Positions 21,696 through 58,918 of a stretch of 64,000 nucleotides of DNA are shown here, in pieces. Position numbers and translations under genes: made by a program. Source of the DNA: an uncultured Candidatus Saccharibacteria bacterium. GTDB taxonomy: Bacteria > Patescibacteriota > Minisyncoccia > Phycocordibacterales > UBA918. Position 1 is the stretch's first letter. Every line of letters starts with the position of its first letter. The DNA is taken from the NCBI GenBank assembly GCA_964353135.1, contig CAYGTV010000001.1, positions 309,497 to 373,496 of the forward strand, written 5' to 3'. Under the pieces are notes generated by a model. That model was not told where the DNA came from and did no database searches. It saw only the letters and a program-made list of their open reading frames with translations.

Positions 21696-21702
21696 AGGTA
21701 TA

Positions 21703-24499: not shown

Positions 24500-24530
24500 C
24501 CGATTTCAGTTGATACCGACTATATACACA

Positions 24531-24555: not shown

Positions 24556-24603
24556 AGATAGGGTCTTTTGTGTTATAACTCCAAGCTTAGAGTCCAGTTT
24601 CGA

Positions 24604-27449: not shown

Positions 27450-28394
27450 TTACCCTAACCGCTTACGTCTCATAAAGAGGAAGTACAGCACAGCAATCAA
27501 CAATGCAAAGATCGGTAGAAGTAGCGAGACCTTGTGAGCTATAGACAACCCTGCAAAGCCAAATCCTGCAGCTTGGACGGTACCATATGGCTGCACACTA
27601 AGAGTAAGGTCGCCTTCTTGCTTTAAATCGTCACCGTTAAACACACGATAGCGTGCAATGTAGCTTCCAGCCGGCAGCCTAGTTGGCAGTTCAGCAGTTA
27701 CTGTATCTGTATCGTATGGTGAGACTTTTGCTATTTTACCTATGTTTTGCACTTCTTCGAGCAGAGCTTGGCCTGAGCGATCAAATATCCTAAATTCAAC
27801 TCGTGACGGAGAAATGTCAACGTTACCAGTATTTTCAATCAGCATATCAAACCGGATTTTACCTGGGAAAAACAACCAACCAAATTTAGTTCCTTCATTG
27901 AGTTCAGCAACCGAGATTTTTCTAACCCTGAAGTCTTCTATCTGCCTATCAATAACAGTCAAGGCAATGTCTACACGAGCACCAAGCGAGATGTTAACTG
28001 AACCACGAGCGATGTCTTCATTCGCTGGCAGAGTTCTAATACGGATCGAACCAGTATATTCTTTGAATTCAGCGTCAGCTGGTACAAGCACACGTACGGT
28101 CATAGGAACTTTCTGTAGTCCTGAGGGTAGCTGTATCGGTGTTCCTTCAACAATCTCAAGCCATCCAGCTAGCTCCGGAGCGTCGATGACTATCTCCGCT
28201 TGCTGAGGAGCGGTTGGATCGCTACGAACCAAAAGAATCTGTTGTTCGTAGATTGAATTTCGTGTAAGGCTAGTATTCTTTACGTAGGGCGGTGTAATAC
28301 CAAATCCGGCGTGCACCTTAGCTACCCCCAGGCTCGCAAAGAGAACAGGTACAAGACAAAAAAGCACTAGGAACGTACGGAGTAACCCATTCAT
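27450..28394 (-). CDS. DUF916/DUF3324-like surface protein paralog: signal peptide, beta-rich ectodomain, C-terminal TM + RRKR tail.
   Basis: MNGLLRTFLVLFCLVPVLFASLGVAKVHA. ...FDMLIENTGNVDISPSRVEFRIFDRSG...GSYIARYRVFNGD...VSLLLPIFALLIAVLYFLFMRRKRLG. Its stop lies 3 nt before the next gene's start. Confidence 0.7.
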   Translation of the reverse strand: MNGLLRTFLVLFCLVPVLFASLGVAKVHAGFGITPPYVKNTSLTRNSIYEQQILLVRSDPTAPQQAEIVIDAPELAGWLEIVEGTPIQLPSGLQKVPMTVRVLVPADAEFKEYTGSIRIRTLPANEDIARGSVNISLGARVDIALTVIDRQIEDFRVRKISVAELNEGTKFGWLFFPGKIRFDMLIENTGNVDISPSRVEFRIFDRSGQALLEEVQNIGKIAKVSPYDTDTVTAELPTRLPAGSYIARYRVFNGDDLKQEGDLTLSVQPYGTVQAAGFGFAGLSIAHKVSLLLPIFALLIAVLYFLFMRRKRLG

Positions 28395-28432: not shown

Positions 28433-28481
28433 CAACAACCTCCGTTGGGATAACGGAGGTTGTTTTTCTGCTTTTTTGTTG
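28433..28481. terminator. Strong 13-bp hairpin between two minus-strand genes. The T-tract is on the plus-strand side, so it could be an antisense-blocking terminator or a leaky attenuator.
   Basis: caacaacctccgtt-gggat-aacggaggttgtt (28433-28464) followed on the plus strand by tttctgcttttttgttgc. On the minus transcript the hairpin is preceded by an A-tract and followed after 11 nt by GGUUUUUUUGCGG. Confidence 0.4.
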
Positions 28482-30420: not shown

Positions 30421-30513
30421 ATAATAAATATTACTAATTTCCTACTAATTGTACCGTTACTTTTGTGTACTGCTAGTGGTTATACACACGTTGTACACAG
30501 TACATAACAGCGA

Positions 30514-31728
30514 TTACTCATACCGGATTGCGTCGAGCGGGTTGAGAGTGGAAGCTCGCCTAGCGGGGAAAATTCCGGTTAAATACCCAACCCCGGCCGA
30601 GAAAATAGCAATAAATGCTAGGAAGTCTAGTGGAAATGAGAATAAACTCACGGCCTGACCCCCAAATTGACTTGCGACAATATTAAGGAATATATTTATA
30701 GCTAATCCGAACCCAACCCCCATGAGTATCCCTGTCACGCCCCCTAAGAACCCCACCACAACTGATTCAGACACAAACAGGTATTTAACATCATTTGGTG
30801 ATGCACCAATTGTCCTCATGATTCCGATCTCTTTGGTTCGCTCAAGCAACGTCACCGTCATGGTGTTAAACATTCCAATAGCAGACACAACTAAAGCAAT
30901 ACCTCCGAACGTGGCCAGAACTGCCTGCACCCCCTGAAAGATTTTTGAGGCTTGTTCAACAGTTTTAGAAAGTGCCGTAACGCGGAACCCTTGCTCTACC
31001 AATGCAGCTTCAACTAAGGGAAGACTCTCATTGTCTATGACATTAACCTGGACTCGTTCATATTCATCGATACCAACGTAGTTACGCAGTTCTGGAAGCA
31101 TCATCATAGCGTTAAGTGTTCCAGCTTCTTTGGTAATACCACGTACGATATATTCTTTCTCAAGGATAATCTCATTCACATCGTCACTACCATCATCAGC
31201 TGGTACCAACAATCTGAACGCTACCCGCTCTCCGATAAATGCCTCTGCGTCCTCGTCGGCAATCCCAAACAATTTGAGTGTAGCCGGAGAGAGCATCACT
31301 GAGGTGGTATCCTCAATATCCTCTTCTTCAAACACCTCACCATAACTTGCAGTAATACCGGCATACCTCAGGTACGGTGGCTCTACTCCCTGAATAAACA
31401 CATTACCAGTTAAGCCTTTGTAGGTTACTAGGGCTGGGAAACGTGCCAACGGTGCGGCGTCAACCACAGCCTCATTGTCTTCAAATCGACGCACCACGTC
31501 TGGTGTCAACGCTAAACCTTGAGCACCGGTTGCTGATACACCTAAAGACAACAATGAATCTCCAAACACGATCTGCTCTAGAATAATCTGCTGCAAACCA
31601 AAGCCAAGTCCTACTAAAATTACTACCGCAGCAGTTCCCACCCCCATACCTAAAATCGTTAACCACGTACGAAGTGGGTTAGTTTTAAACATTCGGGTAG
31701 ACAATTGTGCTAAATCTTGAACTCTCAT
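30514..31728 (-). CDS. ABC transporter permease, MacB/FtsX-like (N-terminal TM, large extracytoplasmic domain, three C-terminal TMs).
   Basis: LRTWLTILGMGVGTAAVVILVGLGFG ... C-terminal FtsX region: ALSKTVEQASKIFQGVQAVLATFGGIALVVSAIGMFNTMTVTLLERTKEIGIMRTIGASPNDV...YLTGIFPARRASTLNPLDAIRYE. Confidence 0.85.
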   Translation of the reverse strand: MRVQDLAQLSTRMFKTNPLRTWLTILGMGVGTAAVVILVGLGFGLQQIILEQIVFGDSLLSLGVSATGAQGLALTPDVVRRFEDNEAVVDAAPLARFPALVTYKGLTGNVFIQGVEPPYLRYAGITASYGEVFEEEDIEDTTSVMLSPATLKLFGIADEDAEAFIGERVAFRLLVPADDGSDDVNEIILEKEYIVRGITKEAGTLNAMMMLPELRNYVGIDEYERVQVNVIDNESLPLVEAALVEQGFRVTALSKTVEQASKIFQGVQAVLATFGGIALVVSAIGMFNTMTVTLLERTKEIGIMRTIGASPNDVKYLFVSESVVVGFLGGVTGILMGVGFGLAINIFLNIVASQFGGQAVSLFSFPLDFLAFIAIFSAGVGYLTGIFPARRASTLNPLDAIRYE

Positions 31729-31729
31729 A

Positions 31730-33052
31730 TTATCCTTTGTAACTTACGTCTACTCCCTGGGCAATAATTTTTTCAAAGTAACGAGTCATATCGTCTGCTT
31801 CGGACTCACTGAGGCCTAAACCTTTTGACCTAACCCCTTTCATCAACCTCTCGTTTAATTCAGATTCATCAGCCACACCAGTCACGCGGTCAGCGATTAG
31901 TTCGGTCATATTGTCTTGTTGCTGCTTACTCATCTTGATTCGATGTTCCTGAGCCAAATGTTCTTGCATTCGTTCGGCTAGTTTATCCTGGGTAAAGAAT
32001 ACTGCGTCGTTATCTTTTTTAGCCCGGAATCGGCGGATATCATCAGCAGTATGAATCACTTTCTCTACCACGCCGGCCATGTGTCGCGCCTCTTTTTCAG
32101 ACACCTCTACCCCGCCACGCTCCATTGGTAGGATGAGGCTCTTGATGAAGTGTTCGCGATCAATTCGACCCTGCAAAAAGAGATCAACTGCGTGTTCAAG
32201 TCGACCAATTTGGTCAAAACTATAGTCCTGAGTCAAGAAATTGACCATACTTTTCACCCGCCAGGTTTCTACCGAGTCATACGGATATAACCGTGCAAGT
32301 TGTTCTAGTTCAGTGACAATCGTTTCGCCTTCGCGGACTGGTTTAATTTGCTTTCGCTGCGGGTTCACCACCTCGCGCAAAATTCGGCCGTCTTTTAGGT
32401 AGTACACCCGGTGAGCGTAACTGAGGTGAGCAGCGTTGTGAGACACCATAATAATCGTTCGCTTATCAAACGTATTAATCTCGTCAATCTTGTCCATCAC
32501 CTGCTGAGTAGATACTGAGTCAAGGTTACCGGTAGGTTCGTCTGCTAAGAGAATTTTAGGGTCATTAACCATTGACCTGGCTACCGATACACGCTGTTGC
32601 TGCCCCCCTGACAGCATCGCTGGGATCTTGTGGGAGACGTGCCCTACACCAAAGCGGTCGAGTAGTGATTGAGCTCGACGCTCTCGTGTCGCTCGGTCGG
32701 CATTACAAAAAATCATCGGCAGCGCTACGTTGTCGAGCACTGACAAAGACATAATCAGGTTGAAAGACTGGAAAATAATACCCATCACGTGACGCTGGAA
32801 ATATACCCGCTCTGAAGGTGGATAAGAATACACGTCATCTCCTTTCACGAGCAGAGTCCCCTCACCTGGCGGCAATGATCCCTGGATCGAATACATGAGT
32901 GTGGATTTACCACAACCAGACGGCCCAAACAAAATAATGTACTCACCCTCAAAAATATCAGTGTTAACCCCAGTAAGAGCCTTGAATTCATTGGACTTTC
33001 CTTGGTTATAAATGATCGAAAGATCACGTGCTACGATGAAAGGTTTTGCCAT
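31730..33052 (-). CDS. ABC transporter ATP-binding protein (MacB-type partner) with an unusual ~210-aa C-terminal helical extension.
   Basis: Walker A: [14 protein letters not shown]. Signature: [14 protein letters not shown]. Walker B: [13 protein letters not shown]-loop: [10 protein letters not shown] verified at 33052..33050 ([15 protein letters not shown]), 1 nt after the upstream stop. The extension from ~aa 245 to the end has no recognisable motif. Confidence 0.85.
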
Positions 33053-33053
33053 A

Positions 33054-34652
33054 CTACGCGCCGATGTTTTGAACCCATCCGAAGGTCGCTTCGAAGTTTT
33101 CAAGGATTAAGTCAATAATGTTTTTTTCCTGTATTGGTGTAAACAACACAAAGTTCTCAGACTGAATACTATTGCCAGCCTCATCGCTACATGTGATGTA
33201 GAACTGGTATACAGTGGCCGGTCCAAAATCAACTACTACTTCCACGTGTGACGTACTGTATTGAATCAATTCCTTCTCAACCGTAAACGGTTCGGTACCG
33301 CCAGCTACACCCTCCTGGTATGTCAGCAGACAGGACGATGGTTCATCGGTATCCCACTCTATAATGGTCTGAATGCGAGACTCACTACCAGGAAATAGAG
33401 TCGATTCGTTAGTCACATTAGTAATAATAGGCGCCGCAATGTCACGCACTGTAATAAACTGAATTGGCTGACTTTTTACTCGGTCACCACCTGAGTTTTC
33501 AGACGTAACAAATGCTACGTACCGCGTTCCCAGAGTCAGGTCAGCCAGCCGCATTTGGTGAGTCGTAGCGAGCGTTGGGCGACCAACCGAGTTCTGAGCA
33601 CCAGTGGTTAAATCCTGGAATTCCACGAGTGCCTTGGCTGGTACAGTGGTTTCCCACGCTAGGGTGGCAGCGTCTTCTTCAACTTTGACTACTCGTAGGT
33701 TTCGAATATCAGGAGCGGTGGCTTTGGTTTGAAAGGTAAAGTTTCGACTTTCCCCGGTTATGCCCACTTCGTCAGTAGAAATGACCTTGAAGCTGTAGTC
33801 AGTAAAGGGATCTAGTCCAATGAGGCGAATTTCGTGCTCAGTTGTATTCCCGCCGGTAGATGACTGAGAAAATTCATAATTTACACCATCAAACCCATTG
33901 GAGGCTGAAAAGCGCACTTCTGAGCTGGCTGCGCGGTCAGTCGTCCATTTGACTAGCGCCGAAGTAGTTTCAGGAATAACAGTTGGTGGACCGACGATCG
34001 TCAGGTCTTCGGTAATTCCTTGGATGGCTTTGACTGTTTCATTTATAATTTCTTGTAACTTTTGTGGGTCTGTAATTTGGTTAATTTGTTCGATAATCCG
34101 TAGTGTTGCCAAAGAGTCATTATTGAGCTCTTCGGTAGTAATTTGTGACTCTGGATCAGGTCGATTACCATCACCCTGCCCAGTACCATCATTTGGACCA
34201 TTTCCATTATTTTCTCCGGTTCCAGCTTGTGGTGGACCACTGGTTTCAATTCTGTAGTCAGCTGAGATTCCTTGGTTTCCGTTTTCGTCTGCCGAGACAA
34301 CCCGAAAATAGTAGGTTCGACCAGCCTCTAGTCCGTCGAGAGTGACTGAGTGTTCTGTTCGGTCAGTTTCGGGAATACGGACAATACCGTAGTTTGGCTG
34401 CAAGCCATAGTTAACAGCTGAGTCAGCCTCTTCATCAGTTTCCCAGGTAATAGTGACGCTCGTTTCGGTAACGTTTGTAATTTGCAGGTTGTCAATTTCA
34501 GGAGCTTCTCGATCGTTTGACTGAGCAATTACAAATTGCGGCATTAAACTCGCCATCAGCAATGTGACACAGAGAAGAGGTGTGATTAAAGATCGAGTTT
34601 GCATTACTGTAATCGTATCACGGACAGCTCGTTGTTTAGTTGAGTAATTCAT
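33054..34652 (-). CDS. Secreted protein with four fibronectin type III (FN3) domains and a Gly/Asn/Thr linker.
   Basis: Signal: MQTRSLITPLLCVTLLMASLMPQFVIAQS (alternative start at 34604). FN3 units: ITNVTETSVTITWETDEEADSAVNYGL...TYYFRVVSAD; ...ALVKWTTDRAASSEVRF...YSFKVISTD; ...ATLAWETTVPAKALVEF...RYVAFVTSE; ...IIEWDTDEPSSCLLTY...YQFYITCSD. Confidence 0.75.
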   Translation of the reverse strand: MNYSTKQRAVRDTITVMQTRSLITPLLCVTLLMASLMPQFVIAQSNDREAPEIDNLQITNVTETSVTITWETDEEADSAVNYGLQPNYGIVRIPETDRTEHSVTLDGLEAGRTYYFRVVSADENGNQGISADYRIETSGPPQAGTGENNGNGPNDGTGQGDGNRPDPESQITTEELNNDSLATLRIIEQINQITDPQKLQEIINETVKAIQGITEDLTIVGPPTVIPETTSALVKWTTDRAASSEVRFSASNGFDGVNYEFSQSSTGGNTTEHEIRLIGLDPFTDYSFKVISTDEVGITGESRNFTFQTKATAPDIRNLRVVKVEEDAATLAWETTVPAKALVEFQDLTTGAQNSVGRPTLATTHQMRLADLTLGTRYVAFVTSENSGGDRVKSQPIQFITVRDIAAPIITNVTNESTLFPGSESRIQTIIEWDTDEPSSCLLTYQEGVAGGTEPFTVEKELIQYSTSHVEVVVDFGPATVYQFYITCSDEAGNSIQSENFVLFTPIQEKNIIDLILENFEATFGWVQNIGA

Positions 34653-34655
34653 AGG

Positions 34656-55600: not shown

Positions 55601-58600
55601 ATAGTCGCCACCCATCAGTGACAGCATCTCGAATTACTGTCATGTGCTTCCAGCCAGCACCTACTACTGCACTATCCAAGGCAAATGTATCGCTTGTACC
55701 TCCGTTAAATAGCGTCAGGTTGTTGTTCTGTAAAAATACAATCAATTCATTATTGGCGCCGGCGTTCAAAATCGCCTGATCTCCAGTCTGTGACGTATTG
55801 ATCCAGAATGACATCGACAACTCATCATGAGCATTGACCACTGCACTCGGGAATAAAATATAATCGTCAAGGGTGGCTTCGCGTGCTCGAATTTCTTGCC
55901 CACTACCCACCTTACCAGTTTTACCTGTTGAGTTAATTTCGTCATCTGCATCGTAATTATTACTAGTGGAGTCAACATATAGTCCAGCATTACCTAGACC
56001 AGCCGCATCCTCTTCTAAGTGGTAAGTAGCCACAAAGTTGTTGGTCCACACATTTTGTGCACCATAGGTATCAGTGTCAACATACGCCGTTGCAGCTGCA
56101 TTATTATAATAAATATGGAACGTATTATCAGATGACGCACTCAACGAAGGTGCCAAGAAGTGCAATTCCCCAGTATCACTACCGGTATCGATAGATACTA
56201 AATCAAATGGTGTTTCGGTAGCCCCATCAGCTAGAGTAACGCGGATATCTCGCCCATCTGACTGTACGCCAGCCCAGAAATCAGGCCCCAGGTCAGCGAG
56301 ATCAACAAAGACCGGGAAGTCAGTCAGGGTTGAATCAACGCTACTGGCTGGGATCGTCACAGCTACTCGGCCAAGCCAGCTTGGGTCATAGTTGTTATCA
56401 ACATCAGCTATAGAGTTGCCTTCAGCAAAGAGGTTTCCAGCATTTATCTCCTGGATAAACCGCACGTCTCCCCCGTCTGCCTTAACATTAGCCCAGAAAT
56501 CTGTCATTGTACTGTCAAGCTGAAGCTGTACTTGGAACTCGGTTTGATCAGCGCCGGTCGGGTTAGTGATTTCAATTGGCATTTTATACTGCCACTGTGA
56601 TGACCAAAATGGATCAAGTAGTCCGTACTCATTATCTCCAATTGCTTCAATCCAATACTCTCCAGTTGAAAAGGCTGGGAAGCTGATATCCATTTTGAAA
56701 TACACTGTTTCACCCGGATCAATAGTAAACTCTTGATCAGCGTGCACTCGGCCTTCAAAATTATCAGGAATCTCTTTGCGATCCGGTCCAAAACCAAGAA
56801 GGGCTGCCGCTCGCCTAAAGATACTGCCACGACTAATCGTACCATCATTGATTTCAACCGGATCCCAACCTCGAGCATAGCGAGTCACCTCGTGATCTTT
56901 GACTTTCTGAGTGACAACACAGGCTGTACCATCACCTTCGATTGATTCACAAGCACGGACCACACTTGTCTGACTACAGCTAAATGTTTCTGTCGCTACT
57001 TCAACCTGCTCCTCGGCTGTAGTTGTGGCAAGCCCTGTAGTCGTCGAAGCAGCCGTAGTGCTACTAGATGCCAGGTCGGCTGAAAGTGTCTCAATTGTGT
57101 CAGCTGTAGGAGCTGTAACCTCACTTGGACTCCACCCAGCTTCACAGTGGTACACGTATGGTCGGTACTCTGGAATGACAGCTTGGCGAGGCTTGTTAAG
57201 ATTAAACACTTCAAGGTTAGTTACCTCTCCTAAATCATTAGGGAAATAGGTTTGTACCGAGAAATCATCTTGCTGGCCACTAGTGTTTGTGACACTAAAA
57301 TAGGTAGTTGCCTCAGATAGACCTTCGTATGTTTTTTGATCAGACTTTATGATCAGTGTCTCGTCTGTGTTGTTATCAGTAAAGGTGAATTCAATCTCAG
57401 TACCGTCTCCAAGAACCAAAATATCACCAGACAAGTTTGACGCTTCGAATCCGTCGTCTGCCAGCAACTCTTCAAATAGTGGATCAACTGGATCAACTGG
57501 TGGTTCAAGCACAAACAGCTCTAACCAGACACTTTCAACAAACAGGTCGGCCAACAAGTCAGGATCAGCATCGTACCGAAGTTCTACTTGCAAATTGCCT
57601 AATGTAGCAGGATCAGTAATAGTTGGTAGTGCAAACAAGAAATACCCACCATTGATACTGTTTGAAACCTCGTCTTCAATTACAATCGATCCACCAGTAC
57701 TCCATGACTCTCCTCCATCAAACGAGTAATTCATTGTGAATGACGGGATCAGTTCACGAGTTTCGCGCTGCTTGGCTGCAAATGACATCCGTAGCTGGGC
57801 TCCTGAAAGTTCCGAACCTTCTTCGATCGGGTAACCAAAATTTCCAACCCGCAGAACATACCCTTCGCAATCGGTATCGCAGTTTACTGCCGCTGCCTCC
57901 ACCACTTCCACTTCGGTTGATGTGGCTGCGTTGTCACTCATTCCTGTTTCTGCCGTAGTGGTCGAGGGAGAGCTGGTCGCTGTTGATTCTGGTTCAGCAA
58001 CCACCTCAGGTACAACTTCAAGTGAATCCTGTGTCGTACTGGTCATATCAAGTACCTGCTCTGGTGTATTTGTTGCGACTTCACTATCAGCCGTAAATCC
58101 AAACACAACTTCTGCTTCTGACTGTACATCATCAACTGGTGGAAGATCATTCGCCTCCGAGACATCTTCTTCTGGCTCAGCATTTGATGTTGCAGATGTA
58201 CTTGAGAACGTCTGCGTAAGAGTATCAATTGCAAGCCTGAAAAGACCTCGCACTTCTTTTAGTACGGTGGTGGTTGCAGATTCTTGTGACTCATCGGCGC
58301 CCACTTCCTCTTCGCCTACCACTTCAGGTTCAGCGGTTTCAGCCGACTGCACAGGAGCTTCAGTTGAAGTTACCTCTTCTGATGACTGCCCAGTAGTAGT
58401 TGTTGCTACTGCTTCTGGCGCAAGAGTCTCGACTGTTGATGAAGGAGTCGAAGAAGCTGGCTGTGAATTATCTGGAGTCACTTGTCTATCGACGCCAAAC
58501 TCACTTTCAACGTCAGAAGATTCATCTGGGGTTTGATTGTTTGTATCTCCAGCGATGGTTCGCAGTTTGCCAAGTGTGGCAGAGTTGATTGCATTAAAAT

Positions 58601-58832
58601 CTTGTAACAGCGCGTACTCGTCCAAGTTTTGAAAGTTTAGAGTTTCAACGTTCTCCCAGCCATTTGAACTGATTTCGCTTGGGAAAATATGAACAGTTCG
58701 AACCACATACGCGTCGTTTGAAAGTTGTGCATACGACGAAATACCCACCCCAAAGATAAGGGCGCTAACAACAGCATAAAGCATTGTTTTTTTGCGCTGT
58801 TTTAGTAGCTGTAACATTCGTAATATCCACAA
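34656..58832 (-). CDS. Giant surface protein (8058 aa; 24.2 kb). Signal peptide, acidic S/T/E-rich stalk, about nine DUF2341-like modules each followed by a LamG/ConA-like lectin-fold domain, beta-helix-like G/T-rich repeat tracts, one 'YRWRNDDGGEG' module, and a Cys-rich conserved C-terminal domain shared with the 644-aa protein.
   Basis: Uninterrupted ORF. Example DUF2341-like module: WLGRVAVTIPASSVDSTLTDFPVFVDLADLGPDFWAGVQSDGRDIRVTLADGATETPFDLVSIDTGSDTGELHFLAPSLSASSDNTFHIYYNN. Another: DLRFTAADGVTLVDHWIEAFNSGTDAVVWIKAPTLPADSVSEFYMYFGN. LamG-like module ends: LDELRFSNVVRSSSWIATEFDNQ, LDELRIASVVRSAAWAETEYEN. The start is 83 nt downstream of the previous gene; the stop is 4 nt before the FN3 gene. 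Confidence 0.85.
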   Translation of the reverse strand: MWILRMLQLLKQRKKTMLYAVVSALIFGVGISSYAQLSNDAYVVRTVHIFPSEISSNGWENVETLNFQNLDEYALLQDFNAINSATLGKLRTIAGDTNNQTPDESSDVESEFGVDRQVTPDNSQPASSTPSSTVETLAPEAVATTTTGQSSEEVTSTEAPVQSAETAEPEVVGEEEVGADESQESATTTVLKEVRGLFRLAIDTLTQTFSSTSATSNAEPEEDVSEANDLPPVDDVQSEAEVVFGFTADSEVATNTPEQVLDMTSTTQDSLEVVPEVVAEPESTATSSPSTTTAETGMSDNAATSTEVEVVEAAAVNCDTDCEGYVLRVGNFGYPIEEGSELSGAQLRMSFAAKQRETRELIPSFTMNYSFDGGESWSTGGSIVIEDEVSNSINGGYFLFALPTITDPATLGNLQVELRYDADPDLLADLFVESVWLELFVLEPPVDPVDPLFEELLADDGFEASNLSGDILVLGDGTEIEFTFTDNNTDETLIIKSDQKTYEGLSEATTYFSVTNTSGQQDDFSVQTYFPNDLGEVTNLEVFNLNKPRQAVIPEYRPYVYHCEAGWSPSEVTAPTADTIETLSADLASSSTTAASTTTGLATTTAEEQVEVATETFSCSQTSVVRACESIEGDGTACVVTQKVKDHEVTRYARGWDPVEINDGTISRGSIFRRAAALLGFGPDRKEIPDNFEGRVHADQEFTIDPGETVYFKMDISFPAFSTGEYWIEAIGDNEYGLLDPFWSSQWQYKMPIEITNPTGADQTEFQVQLQLDSTMTDFWANVKADGGDVRFIQEINAGNLFAEGNSIADVDNNYDPSWLGRVAVTIPASSVDSTLTDFPVFVDLADLGPDFWAGVQSDGRDIRVTLADGATETPFDLVSIDTGSDTGELHFLAPSLSASSDNTFHIYYNNAAATAYVDTDTYGAQNVWTNNFVATYHLEEDAAGLGNAGLYVDSTSNNYDADDEINSTGKTGKVGSGQEIRAREATLDDYILFPSAVVNAHDELSMSFWINTSQTGDQAILNAGANNELIVFLQNNNLTLFNGGTSDTFALDSAVVGAGWKHMTVIRDAVTDGWRLYIDGVADNQNPLPETMSALSVPANCTLAGLEQDTSCLNSGAANQHYDGLIDEIRFSNVVRSSSWIATEFDNQNTPNTFYATSTALISTTILGDDLRWYSTSWDGRQLFTIADADITASIADFPVYLDLSLLGADFFNRVATDGRDIRVTLGNGFTEVPHELVNINTGAQTGELYFKTDLTDGEDNEFYIYFDNQDAIAYDRDDTFGSENVWTNGFQAVYHLEENLAGTGNLNAYIDSTSNRYHGNDEISATGKTGLFGAGQEFGLNSIDYISLPSEVMDGLTDNSVSWWHIASTTDDMTILSGANASQANEFWVRFDNNIRMYLYSQGSAEEFNLSDSVVNYANNTWQHYITTSQDDIDEMNIYINGVGDNENPDPQAITALDISSGGLVVGQDQDTVGGNFSTGENFEGLLDELRIASVVRSAAWAETEYENMANVATFFATSTVESLAPIDSVELDHWFTSWDSGAEEAEVWVQIKDLPASGTTTIYMYYGNSSAESTSDELATFSYSELTEIYYVVDDHGADSISVTSLVDNNQVQLSGGSVIDLNQGETTTITSPSPIGTSVLSILGPVSATVNGAGTDSSDMLAPISFATTTFTLPTRRSNNITYLYAPFASTTVRTYIGASGVADQTFNILENGSETSTTNPGGSDTSIVDGDGIVVEATSPILVSHRSSNPGDGLVAYPPTTDPLYGIVSNNMIMSGVDPSTNLTMTCSAGSGASITGITRGDHEVDTSCTAVAEGAGSAVRLSAATGPIAAIQQADADGNESTVYWPKKEFGTRYAVTRSAAYVAVVCSPDNGSVDLEMVSPLGITIESGTCTPGALTPGKAYFTNGTGDGDTVNFDPGTMVVSTNGVPFYAIFEDVADDQDEKNIQTAVQARKFGSGAVTAVFGEQEEANGLEYEQLSYWWYQNALSLTPTSTWSVGDSESTVEGQPITGAAAVTEGDVLRLRMNARLLNATSTAGTDAFTLEYTSALAGQCSLAPEWYEVGQVGSTTAAFSGFNNTTVADGSQIPTSLLASTTVLATYEERNFSDFVPVDIGTGQVAEWDWVITASNIEVNTNYCFRMVRVEEGDFTNYTVYPELETVGPPNTPLPISFFDNENTPAIIPTLTFVASDIAGDDVNYEIQIDNDADFSSVELQRDSETNFLLFEEADGGADKSPFVSGEVIRFTAATPLPATTTYWWRVRASDPEGSATSSDWSTPYSFTIDTNVTVSEWLQTTGDQFATNGLSNITVAAGQANLSGGTGIITSTPIDFDDATVGNAWGEVSWNETETSGSLSVQIEYNNNGTWTLVPATLIPGNDIGIASSPVSILGLDTSIYNEIRLVATLTGTTVSLQDWKVTWGQRVETPDLGDPFDNQKTANTLPVFDFVSSDPQGDDLEYEISFSTSFNFTAATSTFNSGVDAGFANTANGADTSPFVSGDRLTYTTQAGSPFADGTTYWWRVRAKDPAGGDAWSPWSVPDSFTVDTGVTLSTWFQTTRDQFNQGFLDGTTAVSGGSVVVSEDIGEYGRVTATNNEWQTVVTSLDYTDMVVVASPEFNFNTTDNSRTARIRNKTENSFEIKVDNYLNSFTGSTEVDYIVMEAGDWVINNGAGGFRVVAATQESVTDKQVNAYSDVVGTVVPISPAFSAPPTVLATVASDNDSDWVASHVDGGGSFQSEVTTSQLRLSLAISKFTGSTHIGAEDIDYMLFEVATGVVDGTRFQARNSADAITHIESATALTGFTTAPAVTVVHNNGDDGAEGGFAQKDLGTASTNVNLFTSISEMGPTADNHAANIISIVAFEDASGLIKRDITTGGLVSTIAGEDIIFSDGAGPKFENFSWVDTTPGASEITYQMQYRVSEGEYALIPDVALPGNSTGFTSSPIDLTTIDIDVYDQIRPFATLECASGNCPQINEWQVEWSEGVNMSGRIFQPNRQTPLSGASLYDPAWLGSLELVIPAANVDETLTDYPIYVDLADLGPDFWSGVQSDGRDIRVTLGDGSTETPFDLVSINTATDTGELHFLAPTLSSVTDNTFYIYYNNATATAYAAASTYGSENVWVNGYDLRYALDDDPTSSGLQLDSTDNGNDAVSYTGMTAGDVVTGQIGQAINHDGNDGGIFGSALTYSGEFSASMWWRSTGDGFAISKNAGADEKFGPWSSPAGRNFARVIAGGASDTSVNSPTDGTWSHVVLTRDSANKVDVYIDGTRTRMFSDAAQVGNSTWENFGGQTSQGFQGDLDELRFANVKRSDGWITTEYANQLDPTTFYATSSAASLIVGQIRAAVNAVPLASVGTIAIDGTWNLTNVTAFAGDTITVWIDDAADDKEAVTVFRYDGLGDITGVKLHEQHVAIDANEIGTLSNLQFGLYDNSVSGDEDIFFDVDGSNNLTICAVGTCDNSNLYVGPGQTYIPATSTTVTINTHDFVNDGTIELDANTFNLTGSWTNNATSSADTSTVNLIASTGAETISSTESPLRFHNLGFGGFGTATFTPSVGLDLSGSLTVATGTLDRTGFDISIAGSLVTEFGGVWFGTGTTTFDGAGARSWTDRSAGLQNIGNVVIDGPSTVLSVTTDVSAYDIRIGANDTLVGGTGNTINVGGDWLNQGNFSAQTSTVRLVADDRVYPPIIPGSSDWYGDNAFDKRVAVVVDSAEVNAPLTNFPMFVDLSTLGAAFWSDVKSDGGDIRVTASDGQTELPIDLVAIDTTAQTGELHFLADSVSDIADTTFYIYFDNPAANRYANAATYGRDNVWVDYKAVYHFADDPTAVSNTIVDATGNGFNLTVLIEGLATSTGQLGTAFDFNGSTGYLSDPDFFWTAGDPLTTSGWYFMSAASNEAYWEWGDNAQPDNIEFRPWYQTTNGLHYFGQTGGATYSINPRDTTRWYHFTTLGATSTSADNLVYQNAIEVERVAQSVANPQNTLTGLKVGREGTGGSINAILDEFRVTTETRSQAWIEAEYLNQFRPNLFYSTTSPQTYQPDVLLDEATHNITAGGASFYNFTMDDSVTTAAFLSTSVSVNNDFTVATGTIALPTGTLTIGGSFTNTGVFMHNNGEVRFSSTGPESITLSGTEFLNAFNNVTFNGVGTYTFTEVNATTSNNMIINAGSVVFPSDGLTIGGRLDVNGGGFNANGGTVTFTSSESELISTNGSTFNNVIFGDLSAGSGWYNTDWNNRIEVTIDAGMVDADLTNYPVYVNLAHLGSTFWSGVGNSGNDIRVTTADGVTEVPVEVVDVSTGDDSGEIHFLAPAVSSFADTTFYVYYNNPDAVAYDVTDPYGRNAVWREYEAVYHFVRDPAVGFVDVTGNGKDLAPLVGLADQATGLMGTALDTTTGNVMVGDADWTWTAGEDLVSSGLYFMSTVDDVALWQFGTTCTGDNCLAFLPWYDSVDRGYNRFGETSGNDYRFTRDSLNWHHFTTLGRATDGAQVEIYEDGVIRDFYAQTATGQNPSQTGLQIGRYNTGNYGQILIDELRFATTTRSNEWITTEFENFTNAVNFYSTSSESYLDVASSFTLDESVTTVLGDLTVNFANLVAPTSNLLIGGSALNTGGTFDPNSATTTFNSTDTGETVEFGKGAFYNLSFNGVGGGWSIATTTVTNNASLVTGADFTLQSGNTMTVGGQFTNTFASAATTWAGSTLVLTGGDYTITGRLDEGDDYARMIVSNDSDLVLWNSTVSTSTVRDTSSLYMPDYADIDGTLQIYGQYERTTGTEHWSYATDFDGTDLTGVERAVTVQMGRGAELSFGTSTTLNVVGVSGNETTVSSLSGIYTLGVTAGTVAIDYASFSNIGPAGLELRSGTTIDTLANSAFAVAGGRTGITADAATINLQPSAEYTNMVFSTSSANSIYEPAWADQVVVTVLASEINETLEQFPLYVDLSTLGAGFWAGVQSDGRDIRVTTSNGVELPFDLVEINTANQTGELHLLAPTLSSVENTAFYIHFANPAAVAYAPTDEFGAQAVWVNYEAVYHFNEDPTVRITDVSGNQRDLFPTVGTPATTSGQLGTALDTTATNVMLANSGWTWEAGDDLVSSGLYFQSAFDTGALWQFGPGCVNDNCLAFMPWYDNATRGYHRFGESSGNDYNFTRNPAIWHHFTTLGRAIDGETVEIYEDNQLRDSYTQTPTGENPSQTGLQIGRYGGGTYMDIDVDELRFTTVIPSTNWIDTEYKNLTDPTSLYATTSAETVTYNVTADGVPSTFWLFSAGSGNLYGEAFDNDDGDPGSVQWDDSNFAVTISGVVYQDDGVTPMGAPVCNDSTEVVTVVLDGVTSYTAACSAADGSYEVTGIAYTGEPQITTYIESSALTPQTNVGIYAETTGIGSVASNLLTVNRPALIDDTTLVLIVGKDDDTAFGAVPAGWTAVDILGNATGDQIGTGIWYRRVATAAGEPATYDFPLNDNGENFSYWMGALTNVDPVTPIDVASVWTKYQNEQAPNAPQLTTVTNGSLVLSAWYVDNDDTTVVPSYNWDVRADNIVSAANNNLSVASRLMKTAGPTGSSTMTGVISSRDPHAGQFAFRPASSPTATSSIVAAAVTKTPLGNNGSPFEQVSLRDYRVETGNVLNAADVNVERPAVENGDVLVMMLAKEDDFNFTPPSGWIAAAEQLQVIGNQMYTSLWYKVVTNAGAEPTTYPFTSNDTNSEEYSYWIGSFDGVDATNVFDVAPVWSNLQNTSTPAAPSVTTLTPGAYVLAGWYVIDDGAMDMPAAPWKTLGQDIVTNNRLLAVSGRSMVTAGATGAATLTGGSTDDVNVGQFALRPAAVSVANAINDMDLYQDRVVVRHSNIDPLTIFDMSIFDSTTESDLPFTATLGAPDTLTVADGSGLVVWNNRTFAPGGVIDLLGSGTTAADGSILQKAGSVLQANGSDPITVGGSLYLETGATFSGATSPITFTANNPGQQIGSAASSTITFNSLTFTGTNGGWAVQTPIISQTGITVATGTVSGVANITVNSGSFGGDGTVNLTGGLTRILSTNTLGGVRPWTFNSLTLGNGVAAGITTPAGTATTSVRSVLTIAAGHFLDANNSVFDLQGNGNVLVETGSFLEDISTIRYSGATPNVRQTPYYNLVIDTDRGGVVNATAPITGLQVLNNLRVGVLGTSTLNATINDPAVSVGANVSIGTLGTLIASDIRTMTVNGSWNNDGVFTANNGTTTFARTSGSATIAAGNSPFGKLNITGAANYSIVESATTTGRTSLGASVTGFTLNPGLTLSVAGNFSNLMPDAATTWTGSTLKLTSGTAFTINTKATGDTYDTIVTEAGTHPRLWNSTTTVVTTAPNSSLYSMDHQRVDGNLLIYGDFISAAGADHWSYATDFDGATLGVPRIADVRIEDGGSVLYTGGSLTVLGTSTASTTIMAQGAGPYSMTIGGTATVDMQYYTVRDIVSDGLVLTGTPNVVDLSRGDFEVAFAGGSAMTVGGSVIGANPAKNFTNNRFATTTTINAFNVTATGTSISSWRFVNVDGNLDGEAKDVDPGGDPGYLVWTDSAAIIDISGTVYQNDRSAISTICDGVTNNLRLSIQGLTFASTSCAVGTGDYTFTDIGFGPSDTLTVYIDGEAIQAATVSKDPISLIGDMDLYENHVIVRHESAGAQTIAAMSVYDSSDDADIPFTAVDAGTDTLTLPADFTLLVWANKNFQPGGDVTISGGGSGSSYDGSLELLTGADYIAANGETHSVGGDIVTAAGSLLAPAQSAFDFTAAGAGRTLDFNEAVLFDVTFSGSGDWTITDPTFTAGNDVVISNGDLTLPTGTSTVAGSFENTGGSFDANGGVLYFTATDLGNVVRFGGSTADTVLFSGVGAWSFADVVATTTQSFTVATGTVTLPSGTLIVGEDFVVTDTITHNGGTVQVVGTTGGNIITLSGNDLTNLTVTATGGDYTLTDPSAALLGNLTLSDGALTVGTGTVSIGGSFDVSGGVYNNGLGTLLFNSADGGEFIDPGANDLYNLVIAGAGGWTLIDNATTTNNFAITNAGTFTVNPGSRVYVGNVFTNTVGGAATTWTGTTLVLDGGNQYETNVKVTATESYDILTLGENTDVSSWNTSATTLNVPVTSSFYSQDHAGVDGDLYIYGDYRIGTTTEYWSAATDFDGAVIGSPRQANVYIASSSAVTLAGGSLQIVGTLTASTSVQNQGVGAYDLIATSGTLNANFYNITDLTANGLDISGTTNVTSLSNGYFTQAANNTNLITLVSGVINNNASVVVANTGFATGGFTGGVNVSLDATTTNSWSFTGSLGNLWGEAFDVDGVDDCSSIRWDDSECLLTEQTNYRWRNDDGGEGALDSEWFDTDWSARQRVRVVNDDPATYTNTAVKIPVAYDADMQSDFEDLRFTAADGVTLVDHWIEAFNSGTDAVVWIKAPTLPADSVSEFYMYFGNVSATSTSNGANVFDVIEDFEDNDIAEYTGGTGDIARFETESALDNGAPAYGGGFALRAVNTGDRTTDGIARSDVTVSQGQTIRFMQYIDTVSGTGDEVCTIFASNGSVASNQNYAICTDQIGTDRISIVRNVANTEFSGTILGTSPANFTSGSFGSGWYEFYVDWETDDTIDVAVYFESTGQLVATTTATDSTYTSGGIGFAYWFQNGGWDSYVAYPRTETRPRVYVGDKQVDGGATWANPQNTPTGGYLIGETARLRLAIENSGLPIENQRFQLEFAPKLTAPTCEAVNPANYIEVPNIASCGSSAICMATSPNVTNGDPTTDHLVTDAGDFAAGEIVTSPSNQTSLYDLDQNRYTELEYALQLTANASNDAYCFRVTDDGSTLDSYSNLPELTLAFDPIISAVTLNDGFDISLTPGATTTIIASSTVTDFNGFADLGSATTTFYKTSVGAACTPDDNNCYIATSSCSYVNCSGNSCSLICEAPFAYHADPTDEDGAQEWFAFMEVEDLSGANTFGSSVGVDVLTLRALDVQNAIAYGTVDINQNTGAFNPFVTLVNLGNESLDVQVAGTDMTDGITSVIPAAQQRYSTSTFDYAACIGCSTLAVTGADLEVDLQKPVASTPVVSDQIYWGIEVPFGTASSPHTGTNFFMAITD

Positions 58833-58863
58833 CTCAACAAGAGCTTGCGGCGTAGCTAAAGTA

Positions 58864-58918
58864 TAACGCGCGCCCCCTTGCGGAAGCGCGCGTTATCCTC
58901 TATTTTCTGTTGTTTTTA
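58864..58918. promoter_or_regulatory. GC-rich hairpin with a plus-side T-tract between the cohesin-like gene and the giant gene.
   Basis: taacgcgcgc-(12-nt loop)-gcgcgcgtta (58864-58895), then atcctctattttctgttgttttt on the plus strand. There is no U-tract on the minus transcript, so it is not a canonical terminator for the flanking genes. Confidence 0.3.

What the first reader, a model, noticed from the sequence alone, without database searches (positions are those of the whole stretch)
30514..58832. Giant protein apparently co-transcribed with an FN3 protein and a MacB/FtsX-type ABC transporter: a candidate dedicated export or mechanotransmission module
Seen in sequence: the gene order (minus strand) is giant (stop 34656) -> 4xFN3 protein (start 34652; stop 33054) -> ABC ATPase (start 33052; stop 31730) -> FtsX-like permease (start 31728). 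Stops and starts overlap or sit 1-4 nt apart, with no terminator until the strong hairpin at 28433-28464. Established knowledge: MacB/FtsX-type ABC systems do not translocate substrates across the membrane they sit in; they transmit force to extracytoplasmic partners (LolCDE, MacAB, FtsEX). Inference: this one may process, release or power an extracytoplasmic step for the co-encoded giant or FN3 proteins, rather than being a generic drug exporter.
Basis: inference. Interest (0 to 1): 0.6.

Follow-up and report, generated by a model that had tools for sequence, protein, structure and literature searches.

The report
FN3 fibre protein with MacB-type motor
In a group of ultra-small (CPR/Patescibacteria) bacteria, a MacB-type ABC motor is repeatedly encoded next to fibronectin-III surface proteins that all end in the same short tail motif, which suggests an undescribed motor-plus-partner pair; the giant adhesin beside it in this window is a later, variable add-on.

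Summary
On the minus strand, a giant gene (8058 aa), an FN3 protein (532 aa), an ABC ATPase (440 aa) and a MacB_PCD/FtsX permease (404 aa) sit 1-3 nt apart, and strong hairpins bound the unit.

- The order giant-FN3-ATPase-permease-p644-p314 is kept in about 100 related loci, down to 46-50% ATPase identity.
- The ABC pair belongs to a CPR-wide family whose ATPase carries a roughly 200-aa tandem helical C-terminal extension. Most distant members have no giant nearby, and some sit beside ribosomal, SecY or UvrC genes.
- The recurrent partner is the FN3 protein, not the DUF2341 giant. In 32 of 65 CPR loci, spread over many branches of the family, an adjacent FN3 protein of 337 to more than 2700 aa ends in one specific motif (IIDLILENFexTFGW). 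The motif occurs nowhere else in 764,000 aa scanned.
- The giant varies in size (1522-8128 aa) and is absent from one locus. It shares a C-terminal domain with p644, next to a membrane-anchored protein of two beta-sandwich domains that resembles WxLIP and pilus chaperones.

Best reading: a type VII (mechanotransmission) ABC motor whose outside partner is the FN3 fibre, docked by its C-terminal helix, inside a larger surface-adhesion locus. The mechanism is inferred, not shown. I found no description of this pairing in the literature I could search.

The parts
58857..58902 (-). GC-rich hairpin between the upstream gene (p510, stop at 58916) and the start of the giant gene. It is probably a terminator or 5' boundary of the unit.
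   Evidence: RNA fold gives dG -31.6 kcal/mol and z -6.56, with 0 of 200 shuffles folding as well. Sequence read.
34656..58832 (-). Giant secreted protein of 8058 aa. It has one N-terminal hydrophobic segment (aa 16-35), six DUF2341+LamG modules, beta-helix-like repeats, and a C-terminal domain of about 200 aa shared with p644.
   Evidence: ORF. Pfam hits to Laminin_G_3, DUF2341 and Pentaxin. Module map and hydropathy. C-terminal homology to p644, E 2e-13. The C-terminal part is only 36-62% identical between relatives that share a 48-84% identical ATPase.
33054..34652 (-). FN3-array protein of 532 aa. It has an N-terminal signal-like segment (aa 22-44, ...VIA|QS), FN3 domains, an acidic helical linker, and a conserved C-terminal tail.
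   Evidence: Pfam fn3 and Pur_ac_phosph_N. Hydropathy. 72-78% identical in the nearest relatives (L001-L006, L015) and 63-70% in the other close loci.
33057..33128 (-). C-terminal tail motif of the FN3 protein (…TPIQEKNIIDLILENFEATFGWVQNIGA). It reads as an acidic amphipathic helix and is the proposed docking element for the ABC permease.
   Evidence: The same tail appears on 32 FN3 proteins next to ABC pairs of this family: 22 in group A and 10 in group B. The pattern has 0 internal matches in 3369 translated segments totalling 764,003 aa. It is the most conserved 20-aa bin of the protein, 0.93 identity over 87 sequences.
31730..33052 (-). ABC ATPase of 440 aa: a MacB-type nucleotide-binding domain (aa 1-230) plus a C-terminal extension.
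   Evidence: Pfam ABC_tran. AF2 model with pLDDT 87.6. Foldseek best match is the E. coli MacB ABC domain 5lj9, target-normalised TM 0.95, rmsd 1.5. 82-96% identical in more than 100 protein clusters.
31733..32335 (-). Cytoplasmic C-terminal extension of the ATPase (aa ~240-440). It consists of two tandem four-helix repeats, each with an invariant GGxG-type loop. Its function is unknown.
   Evidence: Alignment A1, with G314, G411 and G413 invariant. Helices H248-H433 in the model. The same architecture is seen in dozens of 50%-identity clusters at 31-49% identity. No Pfam or PDB sequence match.
30514..31728 (-). MacB/FtsX-type permease of 404 aa, with 4 TM helices and an extracytoplasmic domain at aa ~47-262.
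   Evidence: Pfam MacB_PCD and FtsX, both above gathering score. Hydropathy. NCBIfam scores are far below the equivalog cut-offs for MacB, LolCE and FtsX. The TM regions are more conserved than the outside domain.
30421..30513 (-). Intergenic gap with a conserved promoter-like element: TGTGTATAACC (30478-30488) and TACAAT (30448-30453), upstream of p644.
   Evidence: Alignment of the gap from 19 loci. The two blocks are conserved in about 13 of the close relatives. The exact motif is unique in the window.
28486..30420 (-). p644: a 644-aa protein with an N-terminal membrane anchor (aa 14-41). Its C-terminal ~200 aa are homologous to the C-terminus of the giant (…YWGIxVP…GxYxGxNTF…).
   Evidence: BLASTP E 2e-13. 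Alignment A7. It lies directly after the permease in every group-A locus with enough flank and in 42 of 43 metagenome loci. No Pfam or PDB match for the shared domain.
28434..28464 (-). Palindromic 14-bp hairpin, the likely terminator of the unit.
   Evidence: Terminator scan. Fold dG -21.7 kcal/mol, z -5.38.
27450..28394 (-). p314: signal peptide, two beta-sandwich domains and a C-terminal TM helix with a basic tail. It is a WxLIP-like or chaperone-like membrane-anchored protein and part of the conserved locus.
   Evidence: AF2 model with pLDDT 69.8. Foldseek top hits are E. faecium WxLIP (E 2e-9, TM only 0.29-0.36), RbmA, and FimC/PapD chaperones. Conserved synteny.
20256..27446 (-). Rest of the conserved downstream block: a dockerin/Big_6 protein (26346-27446), p379, p350 (cohesin-like, C-terminal TM), a cohesin/Big_13 protein (21703-23481), p226, and a cohesin+dockerin protein.
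   Evidence: Pfam. Paralogy. TM segments. The same order is seen.

Best explanation
The four genes are the front half of a conserved cell-surface locus in a lineage of Paceibacteria (Parcubacteria, CPR).

The ABC pair is a type VII (MacB/FtsX-type) system. It belongs to a CPR-wide subfamily whose ATPase carries a cytoplasmic tandem helical extension. Its conserved extracytoplasmic partner is the FN3-array protein, not the giant.

Proposed mechanism. The FN3 protein is exported by Sec and its signal peptide is removed. Its last element, an acidic amphipathic C-terminal helix (IIDLILENFexTFGW), stays at the membrane and docks into the outside domain of the permease dimer. This would resemble the way the helices of EnvC, PcsB or RipC dock on FtsX. 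ATP binding and hydrolysis in the cytoplasm would then be passed on as movement to the FN3 stalk, which either holds or actuates a surface fibre. In other CPR lineages the FN3 partner is itself a fibre of more than 2000 aa.

In this clade the module has been joined to a variable giant DUF2341/LamG adhesin and to p644, which share a C-terminal domain. That domain is probably held by the membrane-anchored two-domain protein p314, and the locus also encodes membrane-anchored cohesin proteins and dockerin proteins.

Shown: gene order, its conservation, the family relationships, the tail motif and its specificity. Inferred: Sec export, helix docking, force transmission, and the roles of p314 and p644.
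For: - Tight packing between two strong hairpins.
- Synteny is kept from 96% down to 46-50% ATPase identity.
- The nucleotide-binding domain is MacB-like, and the permease has MacB_PCD + FtsX and 4 TM segments.
- The family is CPR-wide with the same ATPase extension.
- FN3 proteins carrying one specific C-terminal motif lie next to the pair in 22 of 25 group-A loci and 10 of 40 group-B loci. Among group-B loci with at least 3 kb of flank on both sides the figure is 6 of 17. It is 0 of 22 in outgroup loci, which are mostly Firmicutes.
- These FN3 genes lie upstream, downstream or divergently, and are scattered over the permease tree. This argues for selection on linkage rather than inherited synteny.
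- The motif is absent from all other translated segments of at least 90 aa in the 93 loci analysed at that stage, and it is the best-conserved part of the FN3 protein.
- L035 and L069 carry a group-B-like and a group-A-like pair in tandem, as expected if the group-A pair is a specialised paralog.
- The ATPase (82-86%) and permease (79-83%) are much more conserved than the giant (45-62%) and p644 (50-54%), as expected for machinery versus exposed cargo.
- The giant and p644 share a C-terminal domain, and p314 has a fold like WxLIP and pilus chaperones. This parallels WxL clusters, which combine a large and a small protein sharing a domain with a membrane-anchored binder (PMC10599100).
Against: - No physical or structural evidence links the helix to the permease; I could not run a complex prediction.
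- 11 of 17 informative distant loci have no motif-bearing FN3 gene within 10 kb, and some pairs sit among housekeeping genes. The partner may be optional or encoded elsewhere.
- L035 and L069 have the group-A pair without an adjacent FN3 gene, and L171 has giant+FN3 followed by another large ORF instead of the ABC pair.
- Very high ATPase conservation also fits a core housekeeping role.
- The p314 model has only moderate confidence, and its structural matches have low TM-scores.
- That the tail forms a helix is read from the sequence pattern only.
- Co-transcription is not demonstrated.
Confidence: 0.5

Rival explanations
1. A housekeeping ABC system with inherited synteny. The pair would be a core CPR envelope system, for example a counterpart of FtsEX or a lipid, lipoprotein or peptide extractor. 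It would lie inside a surface-protein island in this clade by descent only, with no functional tie to the FN3 or giant proteins.
For: - The family is CPR-wide.
- Distant members lie next to the ribosomal operon/SecY, UvrC/SecG or NAD kinase/Maf.
- 30 of 40 group-B loci show no FN3 partner.
- The ATPase is 82-96% identical across many clusters, as is usual for core genes.
Against: - Motif-bearing FN3 genes are adjacent in 10 separate group-B loci, in different positions and orientations, scattered over the tree.
- The motif is found only on those neighbours.
- Tandem group-B-like and group-A-like pairs in L035 and L069 suggest that the group-A pair is a specialised copy.
- NCBIfam scores are far below the FtsE/FtsX and LolCDE cut-offs.
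Confidence: 0.2
2. A Lol-like extractor or release factor. The FN3 protein would be held transiently at the outer face of the membrane by its C-terminal helix. The ABC pair would use ATP to pull that helix out and release or hand over the protein to the wall or surface layer, as LolCDE extracts lipoproteins and YbbAP extracts hydrophobic cargo. This would be a one-time maturation step rather than a lasting anchor or motor.
For: - The linkage evidence is the same as for the best explanation.
- MacB-type relatives that act as extractors are among the closest structures: LolCDE, YbbAP-TesA and HrtBA.
- The best full-length NCBIfam matches of the permease are MacB (89.7 bits) and LolCE (85.9 bits), above its partial FtsX matches, all far below cut-off.
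Against: The tail is acidic (net charge about -4) and only moderately hydrophobic, which is unusual for a membrane-embedded anchor (sequence). No acceptor or carrier protein has been identified. The data here cannot separate this reading from stable docking.
Confidence: 0.17
3. The ABC pair serves the giant and p644 through their shared C-terminal domain, for export, folding or surface attachment of the giant.
For: The FN3-ABC trio is flanked on both sides by proteins carrying the shared domain. That arrangement is kept in nearly all group-A loci. p644 stays next to the pair even in L035 and L069, and a p644-like gene lies 7.5 kb from a group-B pair in L033.
Against: Apart from that L033 p644-like gene, no shared-domain protein or giant is found near the group-B pairs. 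L024 has no giant homolog. The giant has a normal N-terminal signal-like segment, so Sec export would be enough. MacB-type systems are not known to move proteins across the membrane they sit in (established knowledge of type VII ABC systems).
Confidence: 0.08
4. A defensive efflux or immunity pump, like MacAB, YknYZ or BceAB, that protects the cell from antimicrobial peptides or host compounds. The FN3 neighbour would be unrelated.
For: The nucleotide-binding domain resembles MacB, Spr0694 and BceA, and sources annotate the ATPase generically.
Against: The locus has no membrane-fusion protein, no BceS/R-type sensor and no Bce-type 10-TM permease. The specific FN3 linkage would be left unexplained.
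Confidence: 0.05

Closest known systems
Type VII ABC systems (MacB, LolCDE, FtsEX, YbbAP, HrtBA, BceAB): the mechanotransmission superfamily
   Same: The nucleotide-binding domain matches the E. coli MacB ABC domain (target-normalised TM 0.95). The permease has 4 TM segments with a MacB_PCD outside domain between TM1 and TM2, plus the FtsX domain. ATPase and permease are separate genes, as in LolCDE and FtsEX.
   Different: It scores far below every curated equivalog cut-off: MacB 89.7 vs 966, LolCE 85.9 vs 362, FtsX 40.9 vs 225 and FtsE 169 vs 265 bits. The ATPase has a roughly 200-aa tandem helical C-terminal extension with no counterpart in the PDB hits. The candidate partner is an FN3 array, which I do not know of for any characterised member.
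FtsEX with EnvC, PcsB, CwlO or RipC
   Same: As a working model: an outside partner that docks helical elements on the FtsX-type extracytoplasmic domain and is driven by cytoplasmic ATP hydrolysis. It also operates in single-membrane bacteria.
   Different: The partner here has no coiled-coil plus peptidoglycan-hydrolase architecture, and Pfam finds no hydrolase domain. The outside domain is of the MacB_PCD type, not the FtsX_ECD type. No cell-division genes lie nearby.
MacAB-TolC and Gram-positive MacAB-like pumps (Spr0693-0695, YknXYZ)
   Same: The folds of the nucleotide-binding domain and of the permease.
   Different: No membrane-fusion (HlyD-type) gene was detected in the Pfam scans of the window ORFs of at least 120 aa. 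The ATPase and permease are not fused. There is no outer membrane component.
WxL surface-protein clusters of Firmicutes (small WxL + large WxL + WxLIP; PMC10599100)
   Same: A large adhesin and a smaller protein share a C-terminal domain (giant and p644). Next to them is a protein with two Ig-like domains and a C-terminal TM helix (p314), whose best structural match is WxLIP.
   Different: There is no sequence similarity to WxL, DUF916 or DUF3324. The structural match has a low TM-score (0.29-0.36). WxL clusters contain no ABC pair.
Pam pili of CPR bacteria (bioRxiv 10.64898/2026.03.03.709456)
   Same: A CPR-specific surface filament locus with membrane-anchored two-domain chaperones (PamC/D) and an FnIII-containing membrane anchor (PamR). 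p379 gives a weak hit to CPR_Pam_pilin_C, and FimC/PapD appear among the fold matches of p314.
   Different: The hit is sub-threshold (18.4 vs 55 bits). Pam is reported mainly in Saccharimonadia and Microgenomatia, and as having no dedicated envelope machinery. PamR ends in a TM helix, not in the tail motif seen here.
Giant DUF2341-containing proteins of Patescibacteria (PMC11809585)
   Same: The giant is one of the very large (over 4000 aa) DUF2341-bearing proteins already counted in Patescibacteria and proposed to mediate adhesion or host interaction.
   Different: That work does not report linkage to a MacB-type ABC pair or to an FN3 partner. Here the giant turns out to be the least conserved part of the locus.

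Membership tests
Type VII (MacB/FtsX-type) ABC superfamily | Nucleotide-binding domain of the MacB/LolD/FtsE type | tested here: met
   AF2 model with pLDDT 87.6. Foldseek best hit is 5lj9, the E. coli MacB ABC domain: E 1e-20, target-normalised TM 0.95, rmsd 1.5 A. FtsE, LolD, BceA and YbbA follow.
Type VII (MacB/FtsX-type) ABC superfamily | Permease with 4 TM helices, a large extracytoplasmic domain between TM1 and TM2, and a C-terminal FtsX domain | tested here: met
   Pfam MacB_PCD at aa 21-244 (62.7 bits, cut-off 27) and FtsX at aa 273-397 (62.9 bits, cut-off 25.5). Four hydrophobic segments at 21-46, 263-281, 317-336 and 357-381.
Type VII (MacB/FtsX-type) ABC superfamily | Works by mechanotransmission to an outside partner or substrate, not by transport across the membrane it sits in | not testable with these tools
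   This needs biochemistry or a structure of the complex.
MacAB-TolC tripartite efflux pump | Adjacent membrane-fusion protein (MacA/HlyD family), and a MacB equivalog score | tested here: not met
   No HlyD-type domain in any scanned window ORF. NCBIfam MacB score is 89.7 bits against a cut-off of 966.
FtsEX cell-division/hydrolase-activating system | FtsE and FtsX equivalog scores, and a partner combining a coiled coil with a peptidoglycan hydrolase | tested here: not met
   FtsE 169.3 vs 264.85 bits; FtsX_Gpos 40.9 vs 225 bits, covering only the C-terminal TM part. No hydrolase domain in the neighbours.
LolCDE lipoprotein extractor | LolC/E and LolD equivalog scores | tested here: not met
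   lolCE TIGR02212 85.9 vs 362.45 bits; LolD 168.7 vs 307.75 bits.
Proposed CPR subfamily: ABC pair plus FN3 partner with the tail motif | ATPase with the tandem helical C-terminal extension (two GGxG loops) | tested here: met
   Alignment A1 with G314, G411 and G413 invariant. Dozens of 50%-identity clusters cover query positions 3-430.
Proposed CPR subfamily: ABC pair plus FN3 partner with the tail motif | Adjacent FN3-array protein ending in [IVL][IVLFA]xN[FL]xx[TSAV]Fx[WF] | tested here: met
   The window FN3 protein ends in ...IIDLILENFEATFGWVQNIGA. The same tail occurs in 32 other loci and in no other translated segment.
Proposed CPR subfamily: ABC pair plus FN3 partner with the tail motif | Physical interaction between the tail and the permease outside domain | not testable with these tools
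WxL cluster | WxL domain on the large and small proteins; DUF916/DUF3324 (WxLIP) protein | tested here: not met
   No Pfam or PDB sequence hit for the shared C-terminal domain or for p314. There is only a low-TM fold resemblance of p314 to WxLIP.
Pam pilus system (CPR) | Pam pilin C-terminal domain; PamC/D-type chaperones | tested here: inconclusive
   p379 scores 18.4 bits against a 55-bit cut-off for CPR_Pam_pilin_C, and no other window protein hits it. p314 has two beta-sandwich domains and a TM helix, as described for PamC/D, but I could not compare sequences.
Type I secretion of giant RTX-type adhesins (LapA/LapBCE-like) | ABC exporter with fused transmembrane domain, a membrane-fusion protein, an outer-membrane protein, and a C-terminal RTX secretion signal on the giant | tested here: not met
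   The permease is of the FtsX/MacB type, with no ABC_membrane domain, no HlyD and no RTX repeats. The giant has an N-terminal signal-like segment.

The most novel reading that the evidence does not exclude
Across CPR bacteria there may be an undescribed class of surface fibre. It would be built from FN3 arrays (from about 500 to more than 2700 aa) whose C-terminal helix plugs into a MacB-type ABC motor, so that the fibre is anchored to, and mechanically driven or sensed by, an ATPase in the cytoplasm. The ATPase's unique tandem helical extension could couple this to something inside the cell. In the lineage of this window the motor-fibre unit has been built into a larger adhesion apparatus with a giant lectin-like adhesin, a shared-domain anchoring system and cohesin-dockerin parts, which may be used to attach to host cells.
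Probability: 0.17. Interest if true: 0.85.

Novelty: new variant of a known kind. Interest (0 to 1): 0.6.

Why it matters
CPR/Patescibacteria make up a large share of bacterial diversity, and all members cultivated so far live attached to other microbes. How they attach is mostly unknown beyond type IV pili and the newly described Pam pili.

A conserved three-part module with a simple sequence signature gives a concrete, testable candidate for envelope machinery in these organisms. The three parts are the FN3 protein with its specific tail, the MacB-type permease, and the ATPase with its unusual extension.

If the link holds, it would add a new kind of partner to the mechanotransmission ABC family. 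It would also provide a marker for finding surface fibres in thousands of uncultured genomes.

The result also corrects an easy assumption, that a giant gene is the centre of its operon. Here the giant is the most variable and dispensable part.

Tried and rejected
- **Reciprocal search from the FN3 tail across the whole family.** The narrower one (A4) returned only close-clade loci. So the reverse test, from motif protein to ABC pair, is established only within group A.
- **Structure prediction of p314 with locus-derived sequences.** The resulting model has only moderate confidence.
- **Profile and Pfam searches of the extension.** They gave nothing significant. My impression that its GGxG loops look like helix-hairpin-helix motifs is untested.
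- **Profile and Pfam searches of the giant/p644 shared domain.** They gave nothing. I considered a WxL-like identity and did not adopt it.
- **NCBIfam scan for Pam pilus components.** It gave only one sub-threshold hit, so I did not file the locus as a Pam system.
- **Source record of the window.** The look-up through the identical ATPase found nothing on record. I therefore could not test whether this genome also has a second, group-B-like pair.
- **Rfam.** No RNA family was found in the window.
- **Literature searches.** Searches combining MacB/mechanotransmission with FN3, MacB with Patescibacteria, and cohesin/dockerin with Patescibacteria found nothing on this module.
- **The motif TGTGTATAACY as a regulon signal.** It is not repeated elsewhere in the window beyond chance, so I rejected the idea of a shared regulon within the window.
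- **Type I secretion of the giant.** Rejected on architecture.
Full report
**1. The observation**

The window carries an almost unbroken run of minus-strand genes.
- giant, 34656-58832 (8058 aa);
- FN3 protein, 33054-34652 (532 aa);
- ATPase, 31730-33052 (440 aa from the ATG; homologs are uniformly 440 aa);
- permease, 30514-31728 (404 aa).

The spacers between them are 3, 1 and 1 nt.

Pfam confirms the identities. The permease has MacB_PCD and FtsX, both above gathering score. The ATPase has ABC_tran. The FN3 protein has fn3 and Pur_ac_phosph_N. The giant has Laminin_G_3, DUF2341 and Pentaxin.

The giant contains six DUF2341+LamG modules and only one hydrophobic segment, at its N-terminus. 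The permease has four TM segments with a large loop at aa 47-262.

The hairpin at 28434-28464 is real. A stronger hairpin (58857-58902; dG -31.6 kcal/mol, z -6.6) lies between the upstream gene and the giant. The unit bounded by the two hairpins is therefore giant-FN3-ATPase-permease-p644.

The 93-nt gap before p644 contains a promoter-like element, TGTGTATAACC followed by TACAAT, that is conserved in about 13 related loci. The downstream part may therefore have its own start. Consensus scans gave no excess of promoter-like or terminator-like sites in 26-36 kb. Co-transcription of the four genes is plausible from the spacing but is not demonstrated.

**2. Which organism and what kind of locus**

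Housekeeping genes in the window (TGT, FKBP, redoxin) and the names attached to homologs (Candidatus Kaiserbacteria, Nomurabacteria, Paceibacterota) place it in the Paceibacteria/Parcubacteria part of the CPR.

Much of the window encodes surface proteins. These include cohesin-like proteins with C-terminal TM helices, dockerin- and Ig-domain proteins, and several paralog families.

**3. Is the neighbourhood conserved?**

The ATPase is remarkably conserved: more than 100 protein clusters are 82-96% identical and all about 440 aa long.

Context look-ups at 82-85%, 75% and 48-49% identity all show the same order. A large DUF2341 protein is followed by an FN3 protein of about 500 aa, the ATPase, the permease, a roughly 620-aa protein (p644), a roughly 315-aa protein (p314), a DUF4215/dockerin protein, and cohesin-type proteins.

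I scanned the species-representative genomes with a permease alignment and annotated the 80 loci by local BLASTP. Every locus with at least 53% permease identity, which I call group A, has this arrangement where the flank allows. The exceptions are L035 and L069.

A second scan, of metagenomes with the FN3 C-terminus, gave 80 more group-A loci:

| Feature, among loci with enough flank | Count |
|---|---|
| ATPase follows FN3 | 58 of 63 |
| Permease follows | 50 of 51 |
| p644 follows | 42 of 43 |
| Giant precedes | 53 of 55 |

One clear exception is L171, which has the giant and FN3 followed by a hairpin and another large secreted ORF.

**4. Is the ABC pair dedicated to giants?**

It is not. 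The search of representative proteins shows dozens of 50%-identity clusters at 31-49% identity with the same two-part ATPase architecture. The alignment shows that the C-terminal extension is two tandem helical repeats, each with an invariant glycine loop.

Distant members with 36-39% ATPase identity, still paired with a MacB_PCD/FtsX permease, lie next to NAD kinase and Maf, next to UvrC and SecG, or at the end of the ribosomal-protein operon after SecY. None has a giant or FN3 gene within 10 kb.

None of the 40 loci with 30-50% permease identity (group B) has a homolog of the giant.

Within group A, the giant ranges from 1522 aa (L025) to 8128 aa (L003/L004). It has no homolog in L024. Its C-terminal part is only 36-62% identical between genomes whose ATPases are 48-84% identical.

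**5. What does recur with the pair**

In group B, 10 of 40 loci have a large FN3-rich protein beside the pair. Among loci with at least 3 kb of flank on both sides, the figure is 6 of 17. These proteins range from 337 aa (cut off by the contig end) to more than 2700 aa.

They lie upstream, downstream or divergently. They are scattered across a neighbour-joining tree of the permeases, within which group A forms one derived clade.

All of them, like all group-A FN3 proteins, end in the same tail directly after the last FN3 domain. It reads roughly TP-x2-3-(E/K/Q)-x-(S/N/T)-I-I-D-L-I-L-E-N-F-E-x-T-F-G-W-V-x-N-I.

A loose pattern for this tail matches the last 40 residues of only these proteins: 32 distinct CPR loci (22 group A and 10 group B) and none of 22 outgroup loci. 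It has no internal match in 3369 translated segments totalling 764,003 aa. The tail region is the most conserved part of the FN3 protein, at 0.93 identity over 87 sequences.

The tail reads as an acidic amphipathic helix. That is my reading of the sequence, not a computed result.

L035 and L069 carry a group-B-like pair and a group-A-like pair in tandem. This indicates that the group-A pair is a duplicated, specialised copy.

**6. The rest of the locus**

The last roughly 200 aa of the giant are homologous to the last roughly 200 aa of p644, the gene on the other side of the FN3-ABC trio (E 2e-13). The conserved core is YWGIxVP...GxYxGxNTF. It has no match in Pfam or in PDB sequences.

p314 is predicted, with moderate confidence (pLDDT 69.8), to have two beta-sandwich domains and a C-terminal TM helix. 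Its best structural matches are the WxL-interacting protein of Enterococcus faecium, RbmA, and chaperone-usher chaperones, all with low TM-scores.

The pattern is a large and a small protein sharing a C-terminal domain, with a membrane-anchored two-domain binder next to them. This mirrors WxL clusters of Firmicutes. It also recalls the membrane-anchored chaperones of the recently described CPR Pam pili. Sequence evidence for either family is absent or sub-threshold, so I treat these only as working analogies.

**7. Family placement of the ABC pair**

The ATPase model is confident (pLDDT 87.6). Its nucleotide-binding domain superimposes best on the E. coli MacB ABC domain, followed by Spr0694, BceA, FtsE, YbbA, LolD and HrtA.

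The pair scores far below the curated cut-offs for MacB, LolCE/LolD and FtsE/FtsX. The Pfam scans of the window found no membrane-fusion protein.

It is therefore a distinct subfamily of the type VII, mechanotransmission-type ABC systems. I found no description of this subfamily, of the FN3 tail motif or of their linkage in the searchable literature. The one paper that counts giant DUF2341 proteins in Patescibacteria does not mention an ABC link.

**8. Most likely mechanism**

Shown: conserved linkage, family membership, and the tail signature with its specificity.

Inferred: the FN3 protein is exported by Sec. Its C-terminal helix, the last part to leave the membrane, docks on the outside domain of the permease dimer. 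The ATPase cycle is then passed on to the FN3 stalk, as in FtsEX with its helical partners.

The alternative within the same frame is Lol-like extraction and release of the tail. The present data cannot separate the two. I lean towards docking because the tail is acidic rather than membrane-seeking.

The giant and p644 are more likely held by p314 through their shared domain than handled by the ABC pair.

The main rival is that the pair is a core envelope system and that the FN3 linkage is incidental. The scattered, rearranged adjacency and the exclusivity of the motif argue against this. The many unlinked group-B pairs keep it alive.

**9. Verdict**

There is a dedicated-looking module built on a MacB-type pair, but its conserved partner is the FN3 protein, and the giant is a variable, clade-specific addition.

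I rate it a new variant of a known kind, with interest 0.6. The finding becomes testable through a genome-wide co-occurrence census, complex prediction and a peptide-binding assay.

Noticed in passing
window 30421-30513 (minus strand); motif at 30478-30488 and 30448-30453: The gap between the permease and p644 holds a conserved TGTGTATAAC[CT] block, followed about 25 nt later by a TACAAT/TAGAAT block. Both are shared by about 13 related loci. This is a likely internal promoter or operator. The exact motif is not repeated elsewhere in the window beyond chance.
   Followed up: partly
window 58857-58902 (minus strand): A very stable GC-rich hairpin (dG -31.6 kcal/mol, z -6.6) sits between the stop of the upstream gene and the start of the giant. 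The terminator scan did not flag it because no T-run follows.
   Followed up: partly
window 12249-18392 and 24604-25743 (minus strand): A second pair of a large and a small protein sharing a C-terminal domain: a 2047-aa protein and p379 (E 6e-15). p379 gives a sub-threshold hit to the NCBIfam model CPR_Pam_pilin_C, so these may be pilin-like subunits.
   Followed up: partly
window 20256-27446 and 58916-62996 (minus strand): Cohesin-like proteins with C-terminal TM helices (p350, the 592-aa protein and p510) occur alongside dockerin-bearing Ig-domain proteins (366 aa, 667 aa, 251 aa). This suggests a cohesin-dockerin surface assembly in a CPR genome. The literature search found no paper addressing this.
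   Followed up: partly
window 9688-11340, 11243-12232, 27450-28394 and 63371-63859 (minus strand): Four paralogs of the p314 type, one of them fused to a LytR_C domain. This protein family is expanded in this surface-protein island.
   Followed up: no
window 31733-32335 (ATPase aa ~240-440): The two helical repeats of the ATPase extension each carry a GGxG-type loop followed by a conserved alanine. This looks like a helix-hairpin-helix motif. No Pfam or PDB sequence match supports that, and the function is unknown.
   Followed up: partly
L035 5589-11191 and L069 5680-11188: Two ATPase-permease pairs lie in tandem: one resembles the distant CPR type (36-39% identity), the next the close-clade type (48-54%). 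p644-type genes follow, but no FN3 or giant gene lies upstream.
   Followed up: partly
L025 2571-7136; L024 1-6744; L171 10425-13925: The gene in the giant's position is only 1522 aa in L025 and is replaced by unrelated ORFs in L024. In L171 the ABC pair is replaced directly after FN3 by another large secreted ORF that runs off the contig.
   Followed up: partly
window 18434-20149 (minus strand): A 571-aa protein gives weak beta-propeller (TolB-like) hits. It lies between the 2047-aa protein and the cohesin/dockerin genes.
   Followed up: no
window 1-64000: No Rfam family reaches its gathering score anywhere in the 64-kb window.
   Followed up: yes
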